A stretch of DNA of 25,084 nt from a virus (IMGVR_UViG_2778261154_000008), one strand, 5' to 3'. Shown: positions 18,026 to 23,508, numbered from the stretch's first letter. Translations and numbers: made by a program. The notes: generated by a model from the letters alone, not told the origin.

Positions 18026-18603
18026 ACACTAATCCCCAGAATTTCACGTTTGATGGTGTCAGCCGCACCGCCTGACAGACCGCCCGCTCTGACCAGCTCT
18101 TCGGTTTTCTCTGCCATTTCCTGCGCAAACGCATCGCGGATTGCTTTTTCGCGTTTATGGCTGGTCATGGCTGCCGCTTCCAGACGCTGGGCAACCAGCG
18201 CCAGTTGCCCCAGCGCCTTCGGTGCAACAGGTTTGTCATCTTCTGCCATCGACATGGACGTTTCAAAGGCCAGCGTTTTTACAAACTCCATCAGCAGCTT
18301 GCCGACGTCTGACGTCGGCGCGGAACCCAGCTTTGCCGCCCAGACTTCGGCCATTTCGCGGGAGGCGCGGATTTTTGCCCCGACTTTTTCCATGCGGATG
18401 GCATAGCGGTTTAAGCCCGTCCGGCTTAACTGCATCTCCCCCGGCAGGTTGTGTTCGTCAATCAGGGCATTGATGGCTTCGCGGATTTCTTCCTGCGTGT
18501 GCCGCTTTTCCCGCAGCATCTGATGCAACTGCTCCCGGATGCTGTCCGGGAGTAAATCCACTTTGGAAAGACGGCCACGGGTGGGGCGTTGTTCATTTTC
18601 CAT
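18022..18603 (-). CDS. Terminase small subunit (Mu gp27-like, DUF3486-type)
   Basis: ORF listed from a GTG at 18624; the ATG at 18603 (MENEQRPTRG...) has GGAGG 7 nt upstream. Stop overlaps the terminase large start. Confidence 0.7.
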   Translation of the reverse strand: MENEQRPTRGRLSKVDLLPDSIREQLHQMLREKRHTQEEIREAINALIDEHNLPGEMQLSRTGLNRYAIRMEKVGAKIRASREMAEVWAAKLGSAPTSDVGKLLMEFVKTLAFETSMSMAEDDKPVAPKALGQLALVAQRLEAAAMTSHKREKAIRDAFAQEMAEKTEELVRAGGLSGGAADTIKREILGISV

Positions 18604-18740
18604 GTGTGCCCTCCTGTTGCTCACTACGCTGTGAACTTTCGTATGCAGATTTCAGTGCGCCGCTCTGGATTTCCCGCCATGTCAGGTTGTGCGCCAGACG
18701 GCGGAGCTCATCACGGGACGCTTTACTTATCGGATTCTTT

Positions 18741-19040
18741 TTACGGTTCACGACGGCCCCCGTCTTCAGTTCCCGGTGTTTTCAGACCGGCGTATATTTC
18801 TTCACGAACGGACTGAATATCCTTACTTAACAGCTTCCACAGCCGCGCACATGCCGGTGATGACCGCAGGGCGCGTTTCATGGGGGTATCCGGTGCATCC
18901 GGGTTCCAGGGCTTTCCTGTATGTTTTTCGTATGCACGGACAATGGCGTTTTGCTCAATGTCTGCCAGCACAAGGCAGTACGCCAGCTGCCGCACGACGG
19001 CCCGTTCTCCACGACTTAACGGCTTCAGTTTTCGGGCCAT
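18741..19040 (-). CDS. Hypothetical small basic protein upstream of terminase (Mu gp26-like position)
   Basis: 99-aa ORF; part of a chain of tightly coupled small genes. Confidence 0.45.
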   Translation of the reverse strand: MARKLKPLSRGERAVVRQLAYCLVLADIEQNAIVRAYEKHTGKPWNPDAPDTPMKRALRSSPACARLWKLLSKDIQSVREEIYAGLKTPGTEDGGRREP

Positions 19041-19042
19041 GT

Positions 19043-19336
19043 TCAGTCCCTCGCACGGGGTTTTTTAACGCCCGGCACACCGGACAGGCCGTTTGCCACA
19101 TCCTCGCCGCTGCCGGTGATTTCAGCCACGTAACAGCCGCCCACATCAGACAGACGAACCAGCCCCTGCTCGCGCAGCCATGCAAGCTGGGTGCGCACCA
19201 CATCACGGGATACCTTATGACCGTAGGCCTGAAGGCAGGTCTGCAACACGGATTCATTCGCGCTGTCGCCACAGTCCAGCAGGGAACGCAGCAACACCAG
19301 ACGACGGTCTTCAGTGAGGATCTCTTTCATCGCCAT
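19043..19336 (-). CDS. Hypothetical protein, possible winged-helix fold
   Basis: 97-aa ORF; start overlaps the upstream stop by 1 nt (TAATG). Confidence 0.45.
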   Translation of the reverse strand: MAMKEILTEDRRLVLLRSLLDCGDSANESVLQTCLQAYGHKVSRDVVRTQLAWLREQGLVRLSDVGGCYVAEITGSGEDVANGLSGVPGVKKPRARD

Positions 19337-19641
19337 TAATTTTTTTCCTTTAATTCGTTCTCTAATAACAAATCGCTGATGCGGGATACCTGGCGGATGG
19401 ATGGCCCCAGCTCTTTGATTTCACCCCGCAGGTTGCTGATATCCAGTTGCAGGCGGTGAAATTCATTGCGGTCGGGTAGCTGATTCACCAGGCCTTCCAT
19501 CACCGACACGCGGGAACGCAGCGAATCAAACTCTTCGCGTTTGACGTAAGTCTTCGCCAGAATCAGCTGAATCAGGTTTATTGCTGTCATCAACAGCGCC
19601 CATAAAACAGGCCAGTTGGCCCGGATCACTTCCCAGGACAC
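19336..19641 (-). CDS. Membrane-anchored coiled-coil protein (Mu gp25-like position; possible lysis/spanin-like role)
   Basis: 101-aa ORF with an N-terminal hydrophobic segment (WPVLWALLMTAINLIQLILA) followed by a heptad-like region. Confidence 0.45.
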   Translation of the reverse strand: MSWEVIRANWPVLWALLMTAINLIQLILAKTYVKREEFDSLRSRVSVMEGLVNQLPDRNEFHRLQLDISNLRGEIKELGPSIRQVSRISDLLLENELKEKN

Positions 19642-19853
19642 GTCTTCCTCCTGTGTTCCCGCGCCTGCTGGCAGTCAATACAGGTCACCACATCCGGCAG
19701 CACCGCAAGGCGCTGTGCCGGAATAACGTTCCCGCAGTCATTGCAGAAGCCCCGACTGTGGGGTGCTTCTTTTATCCGCATCAGCCAGGCGTTAACGACG
19801 TCCTGACGTTCGTTTAAAACCACTTCACTGATGCGGTCGGTTTCATCGGTCAT
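19626..19853 (-). CDS. TraR/DksA-family C4 zinc-finger protein
   Basis: 75-aa ORF with CxxC...CxxC (FCNDCGNVIP...VTCIDCQQ), typical of phage TraR-like proteins; ATGA coupling to the upstream gene. Confidence 0.65.
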   Translation of the reverse strand: MTDETDRISEVVLNERQDVVNAWLMRIKEAPHSRGFCNDCGNVIPAQRLAVLPDVVTCIDCQQAREHRRKTCPGK

Positions 19854-20458
19854 TTCGGCCCCGCTGATATTTTGTGACAGCTCGATTTGCTGTAACGGGC
19901 AAAGCCGTCAAGGGTTCTTACCCCGAGATAGCCCAGCGCCGGGGTAAACAACATCAGCGTGATATCCCAGTCCGGTGACGGCATATGCAGCGTGATACCG
20001 TTCGCACCGGCAACCGCACCGGCAATCTGGCCACAGGAGAGCAACAGCACATAGGCCAGACTGCTGTAACAGGACAGACGGGCCAGCAACGGGCGCGTCT
20101 GGCGCACATAGCTGTCCGTGGCGTTGTCACCGTTGCGGATGGTTTCCTGTTGTTCGTGGTGAGCGGCCTGCTGGTCAGCCAGCACCAGCTTCTGCCGCTC
20201 CACCTCCAGCTGTTGCAGCTGGACTTTCAGGGTTTCCAGCTGCACCAGTTGCTCCGGTGACAGCATCACCAGTTTTTGTTCCAGAATGCGTTGCTGTTCA
20301 GCCACCGGCAGGCTTTCCCGGACGCTTTCCACCATACCGGCCACCGAGTCAGCGGCGGCAGATGTGCTGCCACCAAACCAGCGCCCGACGGAACGAATCA
20401 GCCCCGGCCCGGCTTTCAGCAGAACGGAGGCGATGCCTGAAAGGGTTAACGGGTCCAT
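19850..20458 (-). CDS. Lysis-associated membrane protein (holin or lysis-regulator candidate)
   Basis: 202-aa ORF: amphipathic N-terminus, central coiled coil (LETLKVQLQQLEVERQKL), C-terminal hydrophobic segments; AAGGGGGA RBS upstream of the ATG. Confidence 0.45.
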   Translation of the reverse strand: MDPLTLSGIASVLLKAGPGLIRSVGRWFGGSTSAAADSVAGMVESVRESLPVAEQQRILEQKLVMLSPEQLVQLETLKVQLQQLEVERQKLVLADQQAAHHEQQETIRNGDNATDSYVRQTRPLLARLSCYSSLAYVLLLSCGQIAGAVAGANGITLHMPSPDWDITLMLFTPALGYLGVRTLDGFARYSKSSCHKISAGPK

Positions 20459-20856
20459 GAATCCCCCTTATGAAAACGGCGCTGATGTTTATAAAGTGCC
20501 GCACAAAAGATACCGCCCAGCCAGAACGCCAGCTGATAAGGCTCCTTCAGATAAAGAAGGCCGAATGTCAGCATGAAAAAACCAACGGCCCAGACCACCC
20601 ATGACCACACGACAATTCGAAGGGAGGCGGCCCGGAAACGCCTTTTGGGTTGCAGGCGATAAGGTACGTTGCCCAGCTGGAAACTGTGAATCAGGCAGAG
20701 TGTCGCGCCGTATGCCAGCACCATGACCGCAAACGCCTGCCATCCGGCAAAACAGCTCGCCAGAAAAAGGACTGCCGACAGCCCCAGAAACGACCACTGG
20801 CACAACATAAAGCGGGAGTAAATAACGCGAACAAAAAGACTATTCATTCTGTGCAT
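20446..20856 (-). CDS. Polytopic membrane protein, ~4 predicted TM segments (holin or superinfection-exclusion candidate)
   Basis: Start taken at the internal ATG 20856 (MHRMNSLF...) with AAGGA upstream; four hydrophobic stretches by eye. The longer listed form (to 21027) would overlap the adjacent 75-aa ORF. Confidence 0.45.
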   Translation of the reverse strand: MHRMNSLFVRVIYSRFMLCQWSFLGLSAVLFLASCFAGWQAFAVMVLAYGATLCLIHSFQLGNVPYRLQPKRRFRAASLRIVVWSWVVWAVGFFMLTFGLLYLKEPYQLAFWLGGIFCAALYKHQRRFHKGDSWTR

Positions 20857-21067
20857 TGAGTTTTTCCTTGTACTTCTGGCACTGCCAGAAAATGTCCCGT
20901 GTATCCACGGTGTTCCAGCCACGCATGTAGTGGCTGGCGTGTGTGCCGTCATGACCGGTATAGTCCAGCGGTTTCGGGGGCGGACCTCCGGCCATACGAT
21001 GTAAAACCTCCTGACGCAGGCGGTCACGCCGCCCGGCTCTCAGCGAGGCATCCCAGCCTTTGCCCAT
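20840..21067 (-). CDS. Hypothetical 75-aa protein downstream of the endolysin gene
   Basis: Start 2 nt after the endolysin stop with GGGGA upstream; hydrophilic, no TM segment; no family recognised. Confidence 0.3.
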   Translation of the reverse strand: MGKGWDASLRAGRRDRLRQEVLHRMAGGPPPKPLDYTGHDGTHASHYMRGWNTVDTRDIFWQCQKYKEKLNAQNE

Positions 21068-21068
21068 A

Positions 21069-21656
21069 TCATCCCCGCGTGACGGACGACACGTTGTCGA
21101 TAATTTCCAGACAGGCGTCGGTCACTTTCTCCATGCGGTTAAACCAGCCGTTCAGGTATTTGCCCTGGGCAGGTTTGGATTTGATGATGTCGGCATAAAA
21201 GCGGGAACGACGGACAATGCAGCGGGTCAGCAACCAGTCCGGGGTGGACAGGCTCACTGCCTTACGGGTACGCGGACCGATGATGCCGTCAGCATCCACA
21301 TCAGCGGCTTCCTGCAAAATCCTGATAGCTTTTTTAACGCCATGCTGAACCGCCGCATCGAACACAAACATCGCCACGCCATCAGGCCACTGGTCACATC
21401 CGGCAGGCAGCCAGTAATCGCGCCAGTAAATCTGCGCGACCTGTTCGCGGGTTAAATCCCTGATGCGGGTATCCGGTTTACCGTCGCCGCTGACATCGGT
21501 TTTGCCGTCAATCACACCGTCGCGGCGGTCAGAAATGCCGTATCTGGTTTCGCCGCCACGGTCAGTGGGGTCATTGACATAGACGCCTTCGATATCGGGA
21601 CGCAGAATAAAATTCAGCGCATACTCAAAGGCCGGGGAGAATTTTTGATTTTCCAT
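21069..21656 (-). CDS. Endolysin, GH108-type muramidase with C-terminal peptidoglycan-binding domain
   Basis: 195-aa ORF; N-terminal FEYALNF...EGVYVNDPTDRGGETRYGIS matches the GH108 signature as I recall it; C-terminal DGIIGPRTRKAV resembles a PG-binding domain. No N-terminal hydrophobic/SAR segment. AGGTG RBS. Confidence 0.8.
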   Translation of the reverse strand: MENQKFSPAFEYALNFILRPDIEGVYVNDPTDRGGETRYGISDRRDGVIDGKTDVSGDGKPDTRIRDLTREQVAQIYWRDYWLPAGCDQWPDGVAMFVFDAAVQHGVKKAIRILQEAADVDADGIIGPRTRKAVSLSTPDWLLTRCIVRRSRFYADIIKSKPAQGKYLNGWFNRMEKVTDACLEIIDNVSSVTRG

Positions 21657-21667
21657 AAAAGCACCTG

Positions 21668-21696
21668 TGAAGCAGATTTAAACGTGGTCTGCTTCA
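21668..21696 (-). promoter_or_regulatory. 9-bp perfect inverted repeat in the endolysin leader, immediately upstream of its RBS
   Basis: tgaagcaga-N11-tctgcttca; on the mRNA the hairpin ends 12 nt before the ATG, next to AGGUG. Shares the TGAAGC motif with the 26-bp element. Confidence 0.4.
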
Positions 21697-21711
21697 TGGT
21701 GCCGGAGGCAT

Positions 21712-21737
21712 AAAAAAAGCCGGATTTACCGGCTTCA
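21712..21737 (-). terminator. Hairpin plus T-tract between the Mor/C gene and the lysis operon: intrinsic terminator and/or late-promoter activator site (copy 2 of a 26-bp repeat)
   Basis: Minus-strand RNA reads UGAAGCCGG-UAAAU-CCGGCUU-UUUUUUA: 7-bp GC-rich stem, 5-nt loop, U7. Begins 4 nt after the Mor/C stop and lies ~55 nt upstream of the endolysin ATG. Confidence 0.55.
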
Positions 21738-21741
21738 TTGA

Positions 21742-22191
21742 TTAAGGACGTCGTGGCGGACGACGAACGGGGTGAGGCAGGTTCGGGGAGTGGTAAAACA
21801 AATCCGGCTGGTATTTATTACACTCCAGACGCCGCATCCGCTTGATGGCCTTGTAGACGGTTTTATACGTCACCCCGTAACGCTGAACCAGTTCAGGAAT
21901 ATTATGGCCGTTAAAATCACGCCAGATACGCATATCCCGGACAAGATTCTCCAGAATATTCCCCCTCGGAACATAAACCTGCATCCCGCCGATATAGCGA
22001 CAAATCGCCACAACCAGCTCAAGGGAATGGGCAGGGTCTGCGCCAATCCGGGCCAGCTCTTTACGCAGCAGTGCGTTCAGTTCAGAAAGTAACGCCGGAT
22101 AAGCCGTGTTTTCCTGGTAATCGTTAAGGTATTCCAGAACGCTGTCGTCCCGGAAGTCTTCGAATAAATCCTGCTCTTTCATCTGTTTCAT
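21742..22191 (-). CDS. Mor/C-family transcriptional activator of middle/late genes
   Basis: 149-aa ORF; the segment DPAHSLELVVAICRYIGGMQVYVPRG...YGVTYKTVYKAIKRMRR closely resembles the Mu Mor/C family as I recall it; ATGA overlap with gemA; sits directly upstream of the lysis operon. Confidence 0.75.
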   Translation of the reverse strand: MKQMKEQDLFEDFRDDSVLEYLNDYQENTAYPALLSELNALLRKELARIGADPAHSLELVVAICRYIGGMQVYVPRGNILENLVRDMRIWRDFNGHNIPELVQRYGVTYKTVYKAIKRMRRLECNKYQPDLFYHSPNLPHPVRRPPRRP

Positions 22192-23079: not shown

Positions 23080-23365
23080 GAATATCTTTATTTGATAGTC
23101 CCAGCCTGCGACGAATGTATTCCTCGCGGGCTGCTTCATTTTGTAGCGCCACGGCAGCTTCCACCTGGTTCATTTCACGGTTGATAATGCTCCGGACTTC
23201 TCTGGCGGTGAGGTCATGCTCAATACCATATTTAACAATATCATGCATACGTTCCAGCATCCTTAAATTAGCCATGACGTCATCAATATTAACTGGTGTG
23301 AATTTCATTTCTTTATTCTCTGGTTTATTCATTTCGTAATACCTCTTCGCAATAAAAGATTTCAT
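23018..23365 (-). CDS. Hypothetical 115-aa protein, lower-GC accessory gene
   Basis: ATG 23365 overlaps the stop of the upstream small ORF (ATGA); largely helical-looking; hand-counted GC ~43% over 23101-23340. Confidence 0.5.
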   Translation of the reverse strand: MKSFIAKRYYEMNKPENKEMKFTPVNIDDVMANLRMLERMHDIVKYGIEHDLTAREVRSIINREMNQVEAAVALQNEAAREEYIRRRLGLSNKDILTDAQMAEAFDIHQNLGLTN

Positions 23366-23508
23366 TGGGATAACGTTTTTGTATGCGCTCCATCACCTGC
23401 ATACATGTCTGCTCTGTGGGCCAGATTTTTTTCCGTTACCGGAATGGCATCGCAGGCATCATTTCCGCAGGTGCCAACCAGCAGGACAAAGCCAGTTGAC
23501 TTAATCAT
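23362..23508 (-). CDS. Hypothetical small Cys-containing protein (48 aa)
   Basis: Start taken at the internal ATG 23508 (MIKSTGFVLLVGTCGNDACD...) with AGGAAA upstream; stop overlaps the next start. The longer listed form would overlap the upstream gene by ~100 nt. Confidence 0.3.
   Translation of the reverse strand: MIKSTGFVLLVGTCGNDACDAIPVTEKNLAHRADMYAGDGAHTKTLSQ

What the first reader, a model, noticed from the sequence alone, without database searches (positions are those of the whole stretch)
19336..21067. Atypical lysis cassette: SAR-less GH108 endolysin followed by unassigned membrane proteins, with no recognisable spanin pair
The endolysin has no N-terminal hydrophobic/SAR segment and therefore needs a holin. 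Downstream are a soluble 75-aa ORF, a ~4-TM membrane protein, a 202-aa protein with a coiled coil and C-terminal hydrophobic segments, a TraR-like zinc finger and a TM-anchored coiled-coil protein. I see no lipobox-containing outer-membrane spanin candidate. The 4-TM protein is unusual for a holin and could instead be a superinfection-exclusion or membrane-defence cargo gene inserted in the lysis module.
Basis: partly seen in the sequence, partly recalled or inferred. Interest (0 to 1): 0.4.

Follow-up and report, generated by a model that had tools for sequence, protein, structure and literature searches.

The report
Mu-like prophage holin–endolysin cassette without spanins
This is the lysis operon of a Mu-like E. 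coli prophage: a cytoplasmic cell-wall enzyme, a probable hole-forming protein related to gene-transfer-agent holins, and accessory proteins, with no recognisable outer-membrane-breaking pair; it is widespread and already catalogued, so it is mostly ordinary.

Summary
On the minus strand, downstream of a Mor-family activator, lie a signal-less GH108/PG_binding_3 muramidase, a soluble 75-aa protein, a 4-TM protein, a 202-aa coiled-coil/TM protein, a TraR zinc finger and a TM-anchored coiled-coil protein. No lipobox ORF fit for an o-spanin exists in the window, the 34-kb prophage or 65 related loci; the same scan finds Mu gp23.1.

Most parts can be assigned. The 202-aa protein is a divergent relative of Pfam GTA_holin_3TM (RcGTA holin, ICP1 TeaA) and is the best holin candidate. 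The 101-aa protein is DUF2730, the Mu gp25 releasin family. The 75-aa protein is a Mu gp18 homolog.

The 4-TM protein fills the Mu gp19 slot. It is present in every locus of the enterobacterial group I could check, diverges fast, overlaps both neighbouring genes, and is absent from the Vibrio and Shewanella versions. It matches no defence model.

The core cassette (GH108, gp18, holin-like, TraR, DUF2730, gp26) recurs in plaque-forming Vibrio Mu-like phages, whose endolysin–DUF2730 pairing is listed by Chamblee et al. 2022. This is therefore a new member of a known kind. The outer-membrane step and the roles of the 4-TM and DUF2730 proteins remain unknown. Interest is about 0.3.

The parts
21742..22191 (-). 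Mor-family transcription activator. It is the only Mor/C-type gene in the prophage.
   Evidence: Pfam Mor E 4e-30. It is 60% identical to the Mor of Yersinia phage vB_YpM_5 and 32% identical to its C protein. No second activator is annotated in the prophage.
21716..21736 (-). Conserved dyad followed by a T-run, immediately after the Mor stop codon. It is terminator-like and is the probable Mor-binding site of a Pm-type promoter for the cassette.
   Evidence: Terminator-like hit. The sequence is invariant across Mu, vB_YpM_5, Kp4866-3 and the window. Its position matches the Mor dyad centred at -43.5 in Mu Pm (PMC4390567, PMC4287176). Identification as the binding site is inferred, not shown.
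21069..21656 (-). Cytoplasmic GH108 N-acetylmuramidase-type endolysin with a PG_binding_3 domain.
   Evidence: Pfam Glyco_hydro_108 83 bits and PG_binding_3 63.5 bits; phrog_315 endolysin E 1.5e-53. It has no hydrophobic segment. The EG(V)YVND...DRGGETRYGI motif is present in the sequence.
20840..21067 (-). Soluble, basic 75-aa protein, a homolog of Mu gp18 (E18).
   Evidence: phrog_2121 E 2e-37, the same PHROG as Mu gp18. It is 67-68% identical to the Mu and Yersinia phage gp18 proteins. It always sits next to GH108 and/or the holin-like gene.
20446..20856 (-). 136-aa membrane protein with four TM segments, predicted N-in and C-in. It occupies the same slot as Mu gp19. Its function is unknown; a role as a modulator of lysis timing is possible.
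   Evidence: Four family-conserved hydrophobic segments, with positive charge at the N-terminus, the central loop and the C-terminus. It matches phrog_12596. A 109-141-aa 4-TM ORF fills this slot in every related locus that has both flanking genes, always overlapping the start of the 202-aa gene. Only 13 word-search hits were found. There are no Pfam or PADLOC matches.
19850..20458 (-). 202-aa holin candidate, a divergent relative of GTA_holin_3TM (PF11351). It has a weak N-terminal hydrophobic helix, a long cytoplasmic coiled coil and two C-terminal TM segments.
   Evidence: Its own Pfam score is 18.7 bits, below the gathering threshold of 24.8. Of 77 family representatives, 33 hit PF11351, best E 8e-9. 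The AF2 model has pLDDT 91.7. The top Foldseek hit in BFVD is 'Holin of 3TMs', E 1.8e-7. The HS6 protein in the same slot scores 43.5 bits.
19626..19853 (-). TraR/DksA-type C4 zinc-finger protein, in the same slot as Mu gp24.
   Evidence: Pfam zf-dskA_traR E 1.8e-11. TIGR02419 scores 56.7 bits, just under its cut-off of 59.7. Mu gp24 has a CxxC...CxxC pattern in the same slot (one search shows the identical Yersinia phage ortholog).
19336..19641 (-). DUF2730 protein of the Mu gp25 'releasin' family, with an N-terminal TM segment and a cytoplasmic coiled coil.
   Evidence: Pfam PF10805 103 bits, against a gathering threshold of 24.9. It is 27% identical to the gp25 ortholog, E 1e-10. The TM segment spans residues 11-29 and is followed by a positively charged stretch.
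19043..19336 (-). Mu gp26 homolog (VpaChn25_0724 family), soluble and probably a winged-helix protein. Membership of the lysis function is uncertain.
   Evidence: NF050184 120.7 bits. It is 61% identical to the gp26 ortholog.
18741..19040 (-). 99-aa soluble protein (phrog_8988) conserved in the cassette. Its function is unknown.
   Evidence: phrog_8988 E 2e-42. In phage HS6 its homolog lies between the gp18-like gene and the holin.

Best explanation
This is the lysis operon of a Mu-like E. coli prophage. It is probably transcribed from a Mor-dependent promoter just downstream of mor and runs on into the terminase genes.

The GH108/PG_binding_3 muramidase accumulates folded in the cytoplasm. 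The 202-aa protein, a divergent relative of the GTA-release/TeaA holin family, accumulates in the inner membrane. It has a weak N-terminal hydrophobic helix, a cytoplasmic coiled coil of about 100 residues and two C-terminal TM segments. At a set time it forms holes that let the muramidase reach the cell wall.

The small proteins around it are accessories rather than the core machine. They are the gp18-like soluble protein, the fast-evolving 4-TM protein in the Mu gp19 position, and the DUF2730 protein. They most likely tune holin timing or assembly.

No spanin is encoded. Outer-membrane rupture is therefore either spanin-independent or done by an unrecognised component.

Shown here: the gene content, the homologies, the synteny and the absence of lipobox ORFs. 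Inferred: holin activity of the 202-aa protein, the promoter assignment and all accessory roles.
For: The window is identical to a prophage of E. coli FDAARGOS_943, which also carries transposase A/B, Gam, GemA, Mor, Mu-type head and tail genes and com.

The endolysin has GH108 and PG_binding_3 domains above the Pfam thresholds and has no TM or SAR segment.

Several results tie the 202-aa protein to the holin family. Of 77 representatives of its family, 33 hit PF11351, best E 8e-9. A confident AF2 model (pLDDT 91.7) has as its best viral structural match a protein annotated 'Holin of 3TMs', E 1.8e-7. The protein in the same slot of phage HS6 passes the PF11351 threshold at 43.5 bits and is annotated as a holin. 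PF11351 contains two proteins with experimental support. RcGTA rcc00556 is required for release (PMC5026251). ICP1 TeaA collapses the PMF and is triggered by DNP (PMC7182436).

The topology follows from the family hydropathy and charge profile.

The core cassette is conserved in 65 IMG/VR loci, in Kp4866-3, MuM16-2 and HS6, and in plaque-forming Vibrio phage 1.028.O.

The dyad after mor is invariant with the Mu mor-gene 18 spacer. Mor binds a dyad centred at -43.5 in Pm (PMC4390567).
Against: The window protein itself scores below the PF11351 gathering threshold, 18.7 against 24.8 bits.

No member of this particular subfamily has been tested.

In Mu itself, the membrane proteins of the corresponding region (gp19, gp20, gp25) are not holins, and Mu lyses without one (PMC9239132). 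Membrane proteins next to a Mu-type endolysin therefore cannot be assumed to be holins.

The two C-terminal TM segments are only moderately hydrophobic, with a family mean Kyte-Doolittle value of about 1.55.

The Yersinia phages vB_YpM_5 and vB_YpM_6 keep GH108 and gp18 without the 202-aa gene. GH108 may therefore have a role that does not depend on that protein.
Confidence: 0.6

Rival explanations
1. The 4-TM protein is the real holin, and the 202-aa protein is its regulator, an antiholin or something unrelated.
For: The 4-TM protein has a holin-like size and several TM segments. It lies close behind the endolysin and overlaps the next gene. Samanta et al. proposed the positional equivalent, Mu gp19, as a holin (cited in PMC9239132).
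Against: The 4-TM gene is absent from the otherwise identical cassettes of plaque-forming Vibrio phage 1.028.O and of MuM16-2, which keep the 202-aa homolog. Mu gp19 is non-lethal, is not triggered by DNP and is dispensable for lysis (PMC9239132). SfMu and vB_YpM_3 lack gp19 altogether. Some E. coli copies of the 4-TM gene are frameshifted. It matches no holin family.
Confidence: 0.1
2. The 4-TM protein is a cargo gene unrelated to lysis. This is the first reader's alternative: superinfection exclusion, membrane defence or another accessory function, lodged in a permissive slot behind gp18.
For: The gene is lineage-specific, present in enterobacterial cassettes but not in the Vibrio or Shewanella ones. 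It diverges very fast, with 11-87% identity inside an otherwise 60-100% conserved cassette. It has a narrow database footprint of 13 hits. The same slot in Mu holds a different 4-TM protein, gp19, that is dispensable for lysis (PMC9239132).
Against: It matches no PADLOC model. The slot was filled by a 4-TM ORF in every locus that has both flanking genes, always with overlapping start and stop codons and a conserved C-terminal W-I-(R/Q). It lies inside an operon that appears to be expressed only in lytic growth, so it would not protect a lysogen (inference).
Confidence: 0.25
3. As in Mu, no holin is involved. The DUF2730 protein, with or without the other small proteins, mediates export or activation of the endolysin by a releasin-like or otherwise unknown route.
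For: DUF2730 is strongly conserved here at 103 bits. [quoted passage not shown] Its role in those phages is an acknowledged open question.
Against: The releasin mechanism acts on a membrane-tethered SAR domain with basic N-terminal residues (PMC9239132), and the GH108 enzyme has no such domain. Mu gp25 alone is not lethal. A holin-family relative is present in the same operon.
Confidence: 0.12
4. The cassette is a decayed remnant. The prophage lost its spanin genes and is lysis-impaired.
For: It is a prophage flanked by IS elements. At least one early gene is frameshifted. MuM16-2 was judged inactive by its describers (PMC8541194).
Against: The same spanin-less layout is conserved over 65 loci and several genera with intact ORFs. 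It is also present in Vibrio myophages isolated from plaques.
Confidence: 0.05

Closest known systems
Lysis region of the Vibrio Mu-like myophages of the Nahant collection (for example 1.028.O) and Martha 12B12. Chamblee et al. 2022, Table S1, list them as pairs of a DUF2730 protein with (except Martha) a non-SAR GH108 endolysin.
   Same: The gene order is the same: Mor, GH108+PG_binding_3, gp18-like, a 202-aa homolog (41% identity), TraR zinc finger, DUF2730, gp26, TerS. These phages also have no annotated spanin.
   Different: They have no 4-TM gene between the gp18-like and holin-like genes. They carry an extra gene for a protein of about 150 aa upstream of GH108; its Shewanella MuM16-2 counterpart has a signal peptide. 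Their hosts are marine.
Bacteriophage Mu middle and lysis region (gp18-gp19-gp20-C-gp22-gp23/23.1-gp24-gp25-gp26).
   Same: gp18, gp25 (DUF2730), gp26 and gp27 are homologous. A 4-TM protein directly follows gp18. A C4 zinc-finger protein precedes DUF2730. The dyad after mor is identical.
   Different: Mu has a SAR lysozyme (PF00959), an Rz/Rz1 spanin pair and a second activator, C. It has no holin and no relative of the 202-aa protein. The window has a cytoplasmic GH108 enzyme, a holin-family relative, no spanin and no C gene. Homology between gp19 and the window's 4-TM protein is not demonstrable.
ICP1 TeaA holin and ArrA antiholin (Vibrio cholerae phage ICP1).
   Same: TeaA carries the GTA_holin_3TM domain and has shown holin activity. 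A neighbouring TM protein acts as its antiholin (PMC7182436). This provides a model for the pair formed by the 202-aa protein and the adjacent membrane protein.
   Different: No direct sequence comparison with TeaA or ArrA was possible here. ICP1 is a large lytic phage with a different gene context. The window's 4-TM protein has no detected relation to ArrA.
Rhodobacter capsulatus GTA lysis pair rcc00555 (endolysin) and rcc00556 (holin), the founding member of PF11351.
   Same: An endolysin is paired with a holin of the same Pfam family, and the holin is required for particle release (PMC5026251).
   Different: That locus is chromosomal and alphaproteobacterial, under host regulation. It is only distantly related, and the window protein is below the family threshold.
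Spanin-less phages listed by Kongari et al. 2018.
   Same: No two-component or unimolecular spanin can be found. About 13% (91 of 677) of the genomes of phages of Gram-negative hosts were in this class (PMC6139136).
   Different: I did not check that list for Mu-like phages with this cassette. The only characterised alternative, the phiKT cationic peptide, has no evident counterpart here.

Membership tests
GTA_holin_3TM (Pfam PF11351; RcGTA rcc00556, ICP1 TeaA) | The sequence passes the Pfam gathering threshold. | tested here: not met
   The window protein scores 18.7 bits against a cut-off of 24.8, E 0.0027. I therefore file it only as a divergent relative, not as a strict member.
GTA_holin_3TM (Pfam PF11351; RcGTA rcc00556, ICP1 TeaA) | Homology to family members at the family or profile level. 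| tested here: met
   Of 77 representatives of the window protein's own family, 33 hit PF11351, best E 8.4e-9, and no other Pfam family recurs. The protein in the same slot of phage HS6 scores 43.5 bits.
GTA_holin_3TM (Pfam PF11351; RcGTA rcc00556, ICP1 TeaA) | The fold resembles that of annotated members. | tested here: met
   The AF2 model has pLDDT 91.7. Foldseek hits 1 and 4 in BFVD are 'Holin of 3TMs' proteins, E 1.8e-7 with probability 1.0 and E 0.12 with probability 0.8. TM-scores are modest at about 0.4, as expected for long flexible helices.
GTA_holin_3TM (Pfam PF11351; RcGTA rcc00556, ICP1 TeaA) | Three hydrophobic segments, with the gene next to an endolysin that lacks a signal. | tested here: met
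   Family-mean hydropathy peaks fall at residues 1-21 (weak), 128-152 and 161-180. Positive charge lies before TM2 and after TM3. The GH108 endolysin lies two genes upstream.
GTA_holin_3TM (Pfam PF11351; RcGTA rcc00556, ICP1 TeaA) | Holin activity: lethal, PMF-collapsing hole formation that energy poisons can trigger. | not testable with these tools
   This needs inducible expression combined with DNP or CCCP treatment.
DUF2730 / Mu gp25 releasin | PF10805 match over the whole length, above threshold. | tested here: met
   103.2 bits against a cut-off of 24.9, covering profile positions 1-102.
DUF2730 / Mu gp25 releasin | N-terminal TM segment with N-out, C-in topology, and a gene within five genes downstream of the endolysin. 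| tested here: met
   The TM segment spans residues 11-29 and is followed by the K/R-rich stretch KTYVKREEFDSLRSR. It is the fifth gene after GH108.
DUF2730 / Mu gp25 releasin | It acts on a SAR endolysin whose basic cytoplasmic N-terminus makes release depend on the releasin. | tested here: not met
   The endolysin has no SAR or TM segment. The protein is a family member, but the releasin mechanism cannot be transferred to it. This is the open case noted in PMC9239132.
GH108 endolysin with PG_binding_3 | Both Pfam domains are above threshold, and the conserved catalytic-region motif is present. | tested here: met
   Scores are 83.1 and 63.5 bits. The motif IEGVYVNDPTDRGGETRYGI is read from the sequence. 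That the Glu is catalytic rests on my own knowledge of GH108, not on a test made here.
Two-component spanin (Rz/Rz1 type) or unimolecular spanin | An outer-membrane lipoprotein ORF with a signal peptide and lipobox, whether embedded, overlapping or separate. | tested here: not met
   No candidate was found in the window, the prophage or 65 related loci. The positive control finds Mu gp23.1.
Two-component spanin (Rz/Rz1 type) or unimolecular spanin | An i-spanin: an N-terminal TM segment with a periplasmic coiled-coil domain. | tested here: not met
   The only protein with a TM segment plus a coiled coil is DUF2730, whose charge distribution puts the coiled coil in the cytoplasm (PMC9239132). 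phrog_214, the Rz-like family, matches Mu gp23 but none of the window proteins.
Mu gp19 (phrog_4975) | Detectable sequence homology. | tested here: inconclusive
   BLASTP finds nothing. hhalign of A2 against gp19 gives a collinear alignment of 102 columns, E 0.006 but probability 6%. The two proteins belong to different PHROGs. They share the slot after gp18, a similar size and four TM segments.
Mu gp18 (phrog_2121) | Sequence homology over the whole length. | tested here: met
   E 2e-37 to phrog_2121, which Mu gp18 also matches. tblastn gives 66-68% identity to the gp18 proteins of Mu, D108, SfMu and the Yersinia phages.
Known anti-phage defence or exclusion proteins (PADLOC-DB) | A match to any defence-system model. 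| tested here: not met
   None of seven cassette proteins matches at E <= 0.01. The library dates from 2023 and is weak on small membrane Sie proteins, so this is only weak negative evidence.

The most novel reading that the evidence does not exclude
This cassette is widespread in Mu-like phages. It combines a cytoplasmic GH108 enzyme, a GTA/TeaA-type holin relative, gp18, TraR, DUF2730 and gp26, with an extra 4-TM protein in enterobacteria. The most novel reading is that it breaches the outer membrane without spanins, using one of its conserved proteins of unknown function.

On the same reading, Mu's orphan middle genes 18 and 19 are leftovers of such a cassette, whose holin was displaced by the C, SAR-lysozyme and Rz/Rz1 block.

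Because the host is E. coli, both the missing outer-membrane step and the non-releasin role of DUF2730 could be tested directly.
Probability: 0.25. Interest if true: 0.6.

Novelty: new member of a known kind. Interest (0 to 1): 0.3.

Why it matters
The practical value is in annotation. The 'hypothetical proteins' of this common enterobacterial prophage can now be labelled: holin-family relative, gp18-like, gp19-slot membrane protein, DUF2730, gp26-like.

It also places in E. coli a case that Chamblee et al. 2022 left open, namely what a DUF2730 protein does when the endolysin has no SAR domain. It adds a further example of a spanin-less lysis cassette in a genetically tractable host.

The comparison with Mu, SfMu and the Yersinia Mu phages suggests how Mu's unusual holin-less system and its unexplained middle genes 18 and 19 arose. 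None of this overturns current understanding.

Tried and rejected
(1) The 'LASC' motif in the 4-TM protein and the 'LLSC' motif in the 202-aa protein look like lipoboxes. I rejected both. They lie in frame inside TM helices, are followed by more TM sequence, and are not conserved outside the E. coli clade.

(2) A 48-aa lipoprotein-like ORF lies at window 23362-23508. I rejected it. It is the frameshifted remnant of a Mu gp13-like Cys-rich protein, and PGAP annotates that region as a pseudogene.

(3) I tested homology of the 4-TM protein to Mu gp19 by BLASTP and hhalign. The result is inconclusive. A gp19 profile could not be deepened, because gp19 has only 6 close relatives and SfMu and vB_YpM_3 lack the gene.

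(4) The word-based homolog search for the 4-TM protein returned only 13 close hits. Its divergent relatives had to be recovered by synteny from the IMG/VR loci.

(5) A PDB sequence search and a PDB fold search with the 202-aa protein gave nothing meaningful.

I did not pursue it with the shallow alignment A4.

(7) PADLOC and NCBIfam gave no names for the unknown proteins.

(8) The profile of phrog_2121 spans both gp18-like and 202-aa-like sequences, which suggested that fused proteins exist. I found no fused protein among 135 representatives, the longest being 230 aa, so I treat this only as a hint.
Full report
**Identity of the window.**
The stretch 18600-21700 is 100% identical to the chromosome of E. 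coli FDAARGOS_943. At 92-95% identity it occurs in about 50 of 5426 complete E. coli genomes. The surrounding annotation shows a Mu-like prophage of about 34 kb. It has a repressor, Ner, transposase A/B, Gam, gp16/GemA, one Mor-family activator, Mu-type terminase, portal, head and contractile-tail genes, and com. All genes of interest are on the minus strand.

**Checking the observation.**
- a 195-aa GH108+PG_binding_3 enzyme with no hydrophobic N-terminus (21069-21656);
- a soluble, basic 75-aa ORF (20840-21067);
- a 4-TM protein (20446-20856);
- a 202-aa protein with a long helix and C-terminal hydrophobic segments (19850-20458);
- a TraR/DksA C4 zinc finger (19626-19853);
- a 101-aa protein with one N-terminal TM segment and a coiled coil (19336-19641).

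The genes abut or overlap, and no promoter-like site lies inside the cassette.

To test the 'no spanin' claim I scanned every ATG, GTG and TTG start in all frames for a signal peptide plus lipobox. The scan covered the window, the full prophage and the cassette strand of 65 related loci. Nothing suitable turned up. The hits are in-frame motifs inside TM helices and are not conserved, plus one frameshifted gp13-like remnant. The same scan recovers Mu gp23.1 and its Yersinia phage ortholog, and finds nothing in the whole genome of phage HS6.

**What the parts are.**

*The 101-aa protein* is a full-length DUF2730 protein, at 103 bits. This is the family of Mu gp25, the 'releasin' that frees Mu's SAR endolysin (PMC9239132).

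*The 75-aa protein* is a homolog of Mu gp18. It matches the same PHROG and is 66-68% identical.

*The next genes* downstream are homologs of Mu gp26 and gp27.

*The 202-aa protein* scores only 18.7 bits on Pfam GTA_holin_3TM, below the threshold of 24.8. An exhaustive search found 135 cluster representatives of its family. Of 77 aligned full-length representatives, 33 hit that Pfam family, best E 8e-9, and no other family recurs. An AlphaFold model built on this alignment is confident, with pLDDT 91.7 and an all-helical fold. Its best structural match among viral proteins is annotated 'Holin of 3TMs, for gene-transfer release', E 1.8e-7. No solved structure is similar. The family hydropathy and charge profile shows three features:
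- a weak N-terminal hydrophobic helix and two C-terminal TM segments;
- positive charge before TM2 and after TM3;
- an acidic loop between TM2 and TM3.

The coiled coil of about 100 residues is therefore probably cytoplasmic. PF11351 contains two proteins with functional evidence. One is the RcGTA holin rcc00556 (PMC5026251). The other is ICP1 TeaA, which works with a neighbouring membrane antiholin, ArrA (PMC7182436).

**Comparative context.**
A scan of IMG/VR with the 202-aa protein returned 65 loci. All loci with enough flanking sequence show the same order: gp16, Mor, GH108, gp18, 4-TM slot, 202-aa, TraR, DUF2730, gp26, orf99, gp27, TerL. Klebsiella phage Kp4866-3 has the same layout.

In every locus that has both flanking genes, the slot between gp18 and the 202-aa gene holds a 4-TM ORF of 109-141 aa. 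This ORF overlaps the next start codon by 13 nt and ends in W-I-(R/Q/L). Its sequence identity to the window protein ranges from 87% down to 11%.

More distant relatives keep the core but lack the 4-TM gene:
- Vibrio myophage 1.028.O, isolated from plaques, has Mor, p19, GH108, gp18-like, a 41%-identical homolog of the 202-aa protein, TraR, DUF2730, gp26 and TerS.
- Shewanella MuM16-2 has the same arrangement.
- Pseudoalteromonas phage HS6 has endolysin, gp18-like, orf99-like, a bona fide PF11351 'holin', a zinc finger and DUF2730. No spanin is annotated anywhere in its genome.

These Vibrio phages are the same ones Chamblee et al. list as pairing DUF2730 with a non-SAR GH108 endolysin. That paper states that the role of DUF2730 in such phages is unknown.

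**Relation to Mu.**
Mu has Mor, gp18, gp19 (4 TM), gp20, C, a SAR lysozyme, Rz/Rz1, gp24 (a C4 zinc finger), gp25, gp26 and gp27. Yersinia phages vB_YpM_5 and vB_YpM_6 have Mor, GH108 (72% identical to the window enzyme), gp18, C and then the Mu late lysis genes. SfMu and vB_YpM_3 lack gp19.

The window's activator resembles Mor (60% identity) rather than C (32%). The dyad plus T-run after mor is invariant between Mu, the Yersinia phage, Kp4866-3 and the window. Its position fits the Mor-binding dyad centred at -43.5 of Mu Pm (PMC4390567, PMC4287176).

I infer two things. First, the cassette heads a Mor-dependent operon. Second, in Mu the block of C, SAR lysozyme and spanin replaced the holin-type gene, leaving gp18 and possibly gp19 behind. 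Sequence homology between gp19 and the window's 4-TM protein could not be shown.

**Mechanism.**
The best-supported model is a conventional first two steps. A cytoplasmic muramidase is released by a holin of the GTA/TeaA lineage, the 202-aa protein.

The 4-TM protein is an addition to the cassette specific to enterobacterial hosts. I rank the possibilities for it as follows.
- *Modulator of holin timing.* It overlaps both neighbouring genes, which suggests coupled translation. It is constant across the clade. The ICP1 holin–antiholin pair offers a precedent.
- *Unrelated accessory or exclusion function.* This is supported only by its rapid divergence and its absence from the marine relatives. 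No defence model matches it.
- *The holin itself.* This is unlikely. The gene is absent from plaque-forming relatives, and Mu gp19 is harmless and dispensable.

DUF2730 cannot act here as a releasin, because there is no SAR domain to release. Its role is open.

The outer-membrane step has no candidate. About 13% of the genomes of phages of Gram-negative hosts are in the same position.

**Verdict.**
The description is accurate, but 'atypical' overstates the case. This is the standard lysis region of a large group of Mu-like phages and prophages. Its endolysin–DUF2730 pairing is already tabulated in the literature, and its holin-family gene is recognisable by profile and fold. It is a new member of a known kind. 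What remains open are the missing spanin function, the role of DUF2730 with a soluble endolysin, and the role of the gp19-slot protein. All three are of real but moderate interest and can be tested in E. coli.

Noticed in passing
window 21716-21736 (- strand), between the Mor stop codon and the GH108 start: The dyad plus T-run AAGCCGGTAAATCCGGCTTTTTTTA is invariant with the Mu mor-gene 18 spacer and with Yersinia vB_YpM_5 and Klebsiella Kp4866-3. It looks like a terminator, yet it sits where the Mor-binding dyad of Mu Pm is expected.
   Followed up: partly
whole prophage (L071 6000-41000; the window covers most of it): Only one Mor/C-family activator is annotated, and it is Mor-like. A com gene with a downstream mom-position gene is present. 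In Mu these late functions need the separate activator C, so late-gene control here may be a single-step cascade.
   Followed up: no
window 23325-23508 (- strand): A 48-aa ORF with a lipoprotein-like N-terminus (MIKSTGFVLLVGTC...) is really the frameshifted remnant of a Mu gp13-like Cys-rich protein. The two share a TCGN(D/E) motif. PGAP marks the region as a frameshifted pseudogene.
   Followed up: yes
window 18593-18751 (- strand): A 52-aa ORF overlapping the end of orf99 and the start of gp27 resembles the N-terminal 38 residues of orf99, so it is a partial tandem duplicate. PGAP annotates the equivalent ORF in strain STEC383 but not in this genome.
   Followed up: partly
L003 3973-4756 (Yersinia phage vB_YpM_5; the same in vB_YpM_6): These true Muvirus phages carry a GH108 enzyme (72% identical to the window's) plus gp18 in the middle operon between Mor and C. 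They also carry the Mu SAR lysozyme and Rz/Rz1. That makes two muralytic enzymes, one of them expressed early and without a holin partner.
   Followed up: partly
proteins P0130, P0131, P0133 (other E. coli genomes), aligned in A4: Some E. coli copies of the 4-TM gene are frameshifted into the alternative frame seen at window 20489-20803. One copy is fused to the C-terminal part of gp18. This suggests the gene decays or is dispensable in some prophages.
   Followed up: no
L005 1999-2331 and many IMG/VR loci (gap of about 600 nt between Mor and GH108): Klebsiella phage Kp4866-3 and many related loci have extra sequence between Mor and GH108. In Kp4866-3 it holds an AT-rich gene for a 110-aa membrane protein. 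The window has no such insert. This looks like a variable cargo slot.
   Followed up: no
phrog_2121 matches: A single PHROG profile of 284 positions matches gp18-like proteins at positions 3-75 and the 202-aa protein at positions 91-273. This hints that fused versions of the two proteins exist somewhere. None was found among 135 representatives.
   Followed up: partly
L071 1-6100 and 40800-44001 (flanks of the prophage): The prophage is embedded in a region of fragmented host genes (pieces of yehI/DUF4132 and MolR) with IS5 and IS600 copies on both sides.
   Followed up: no
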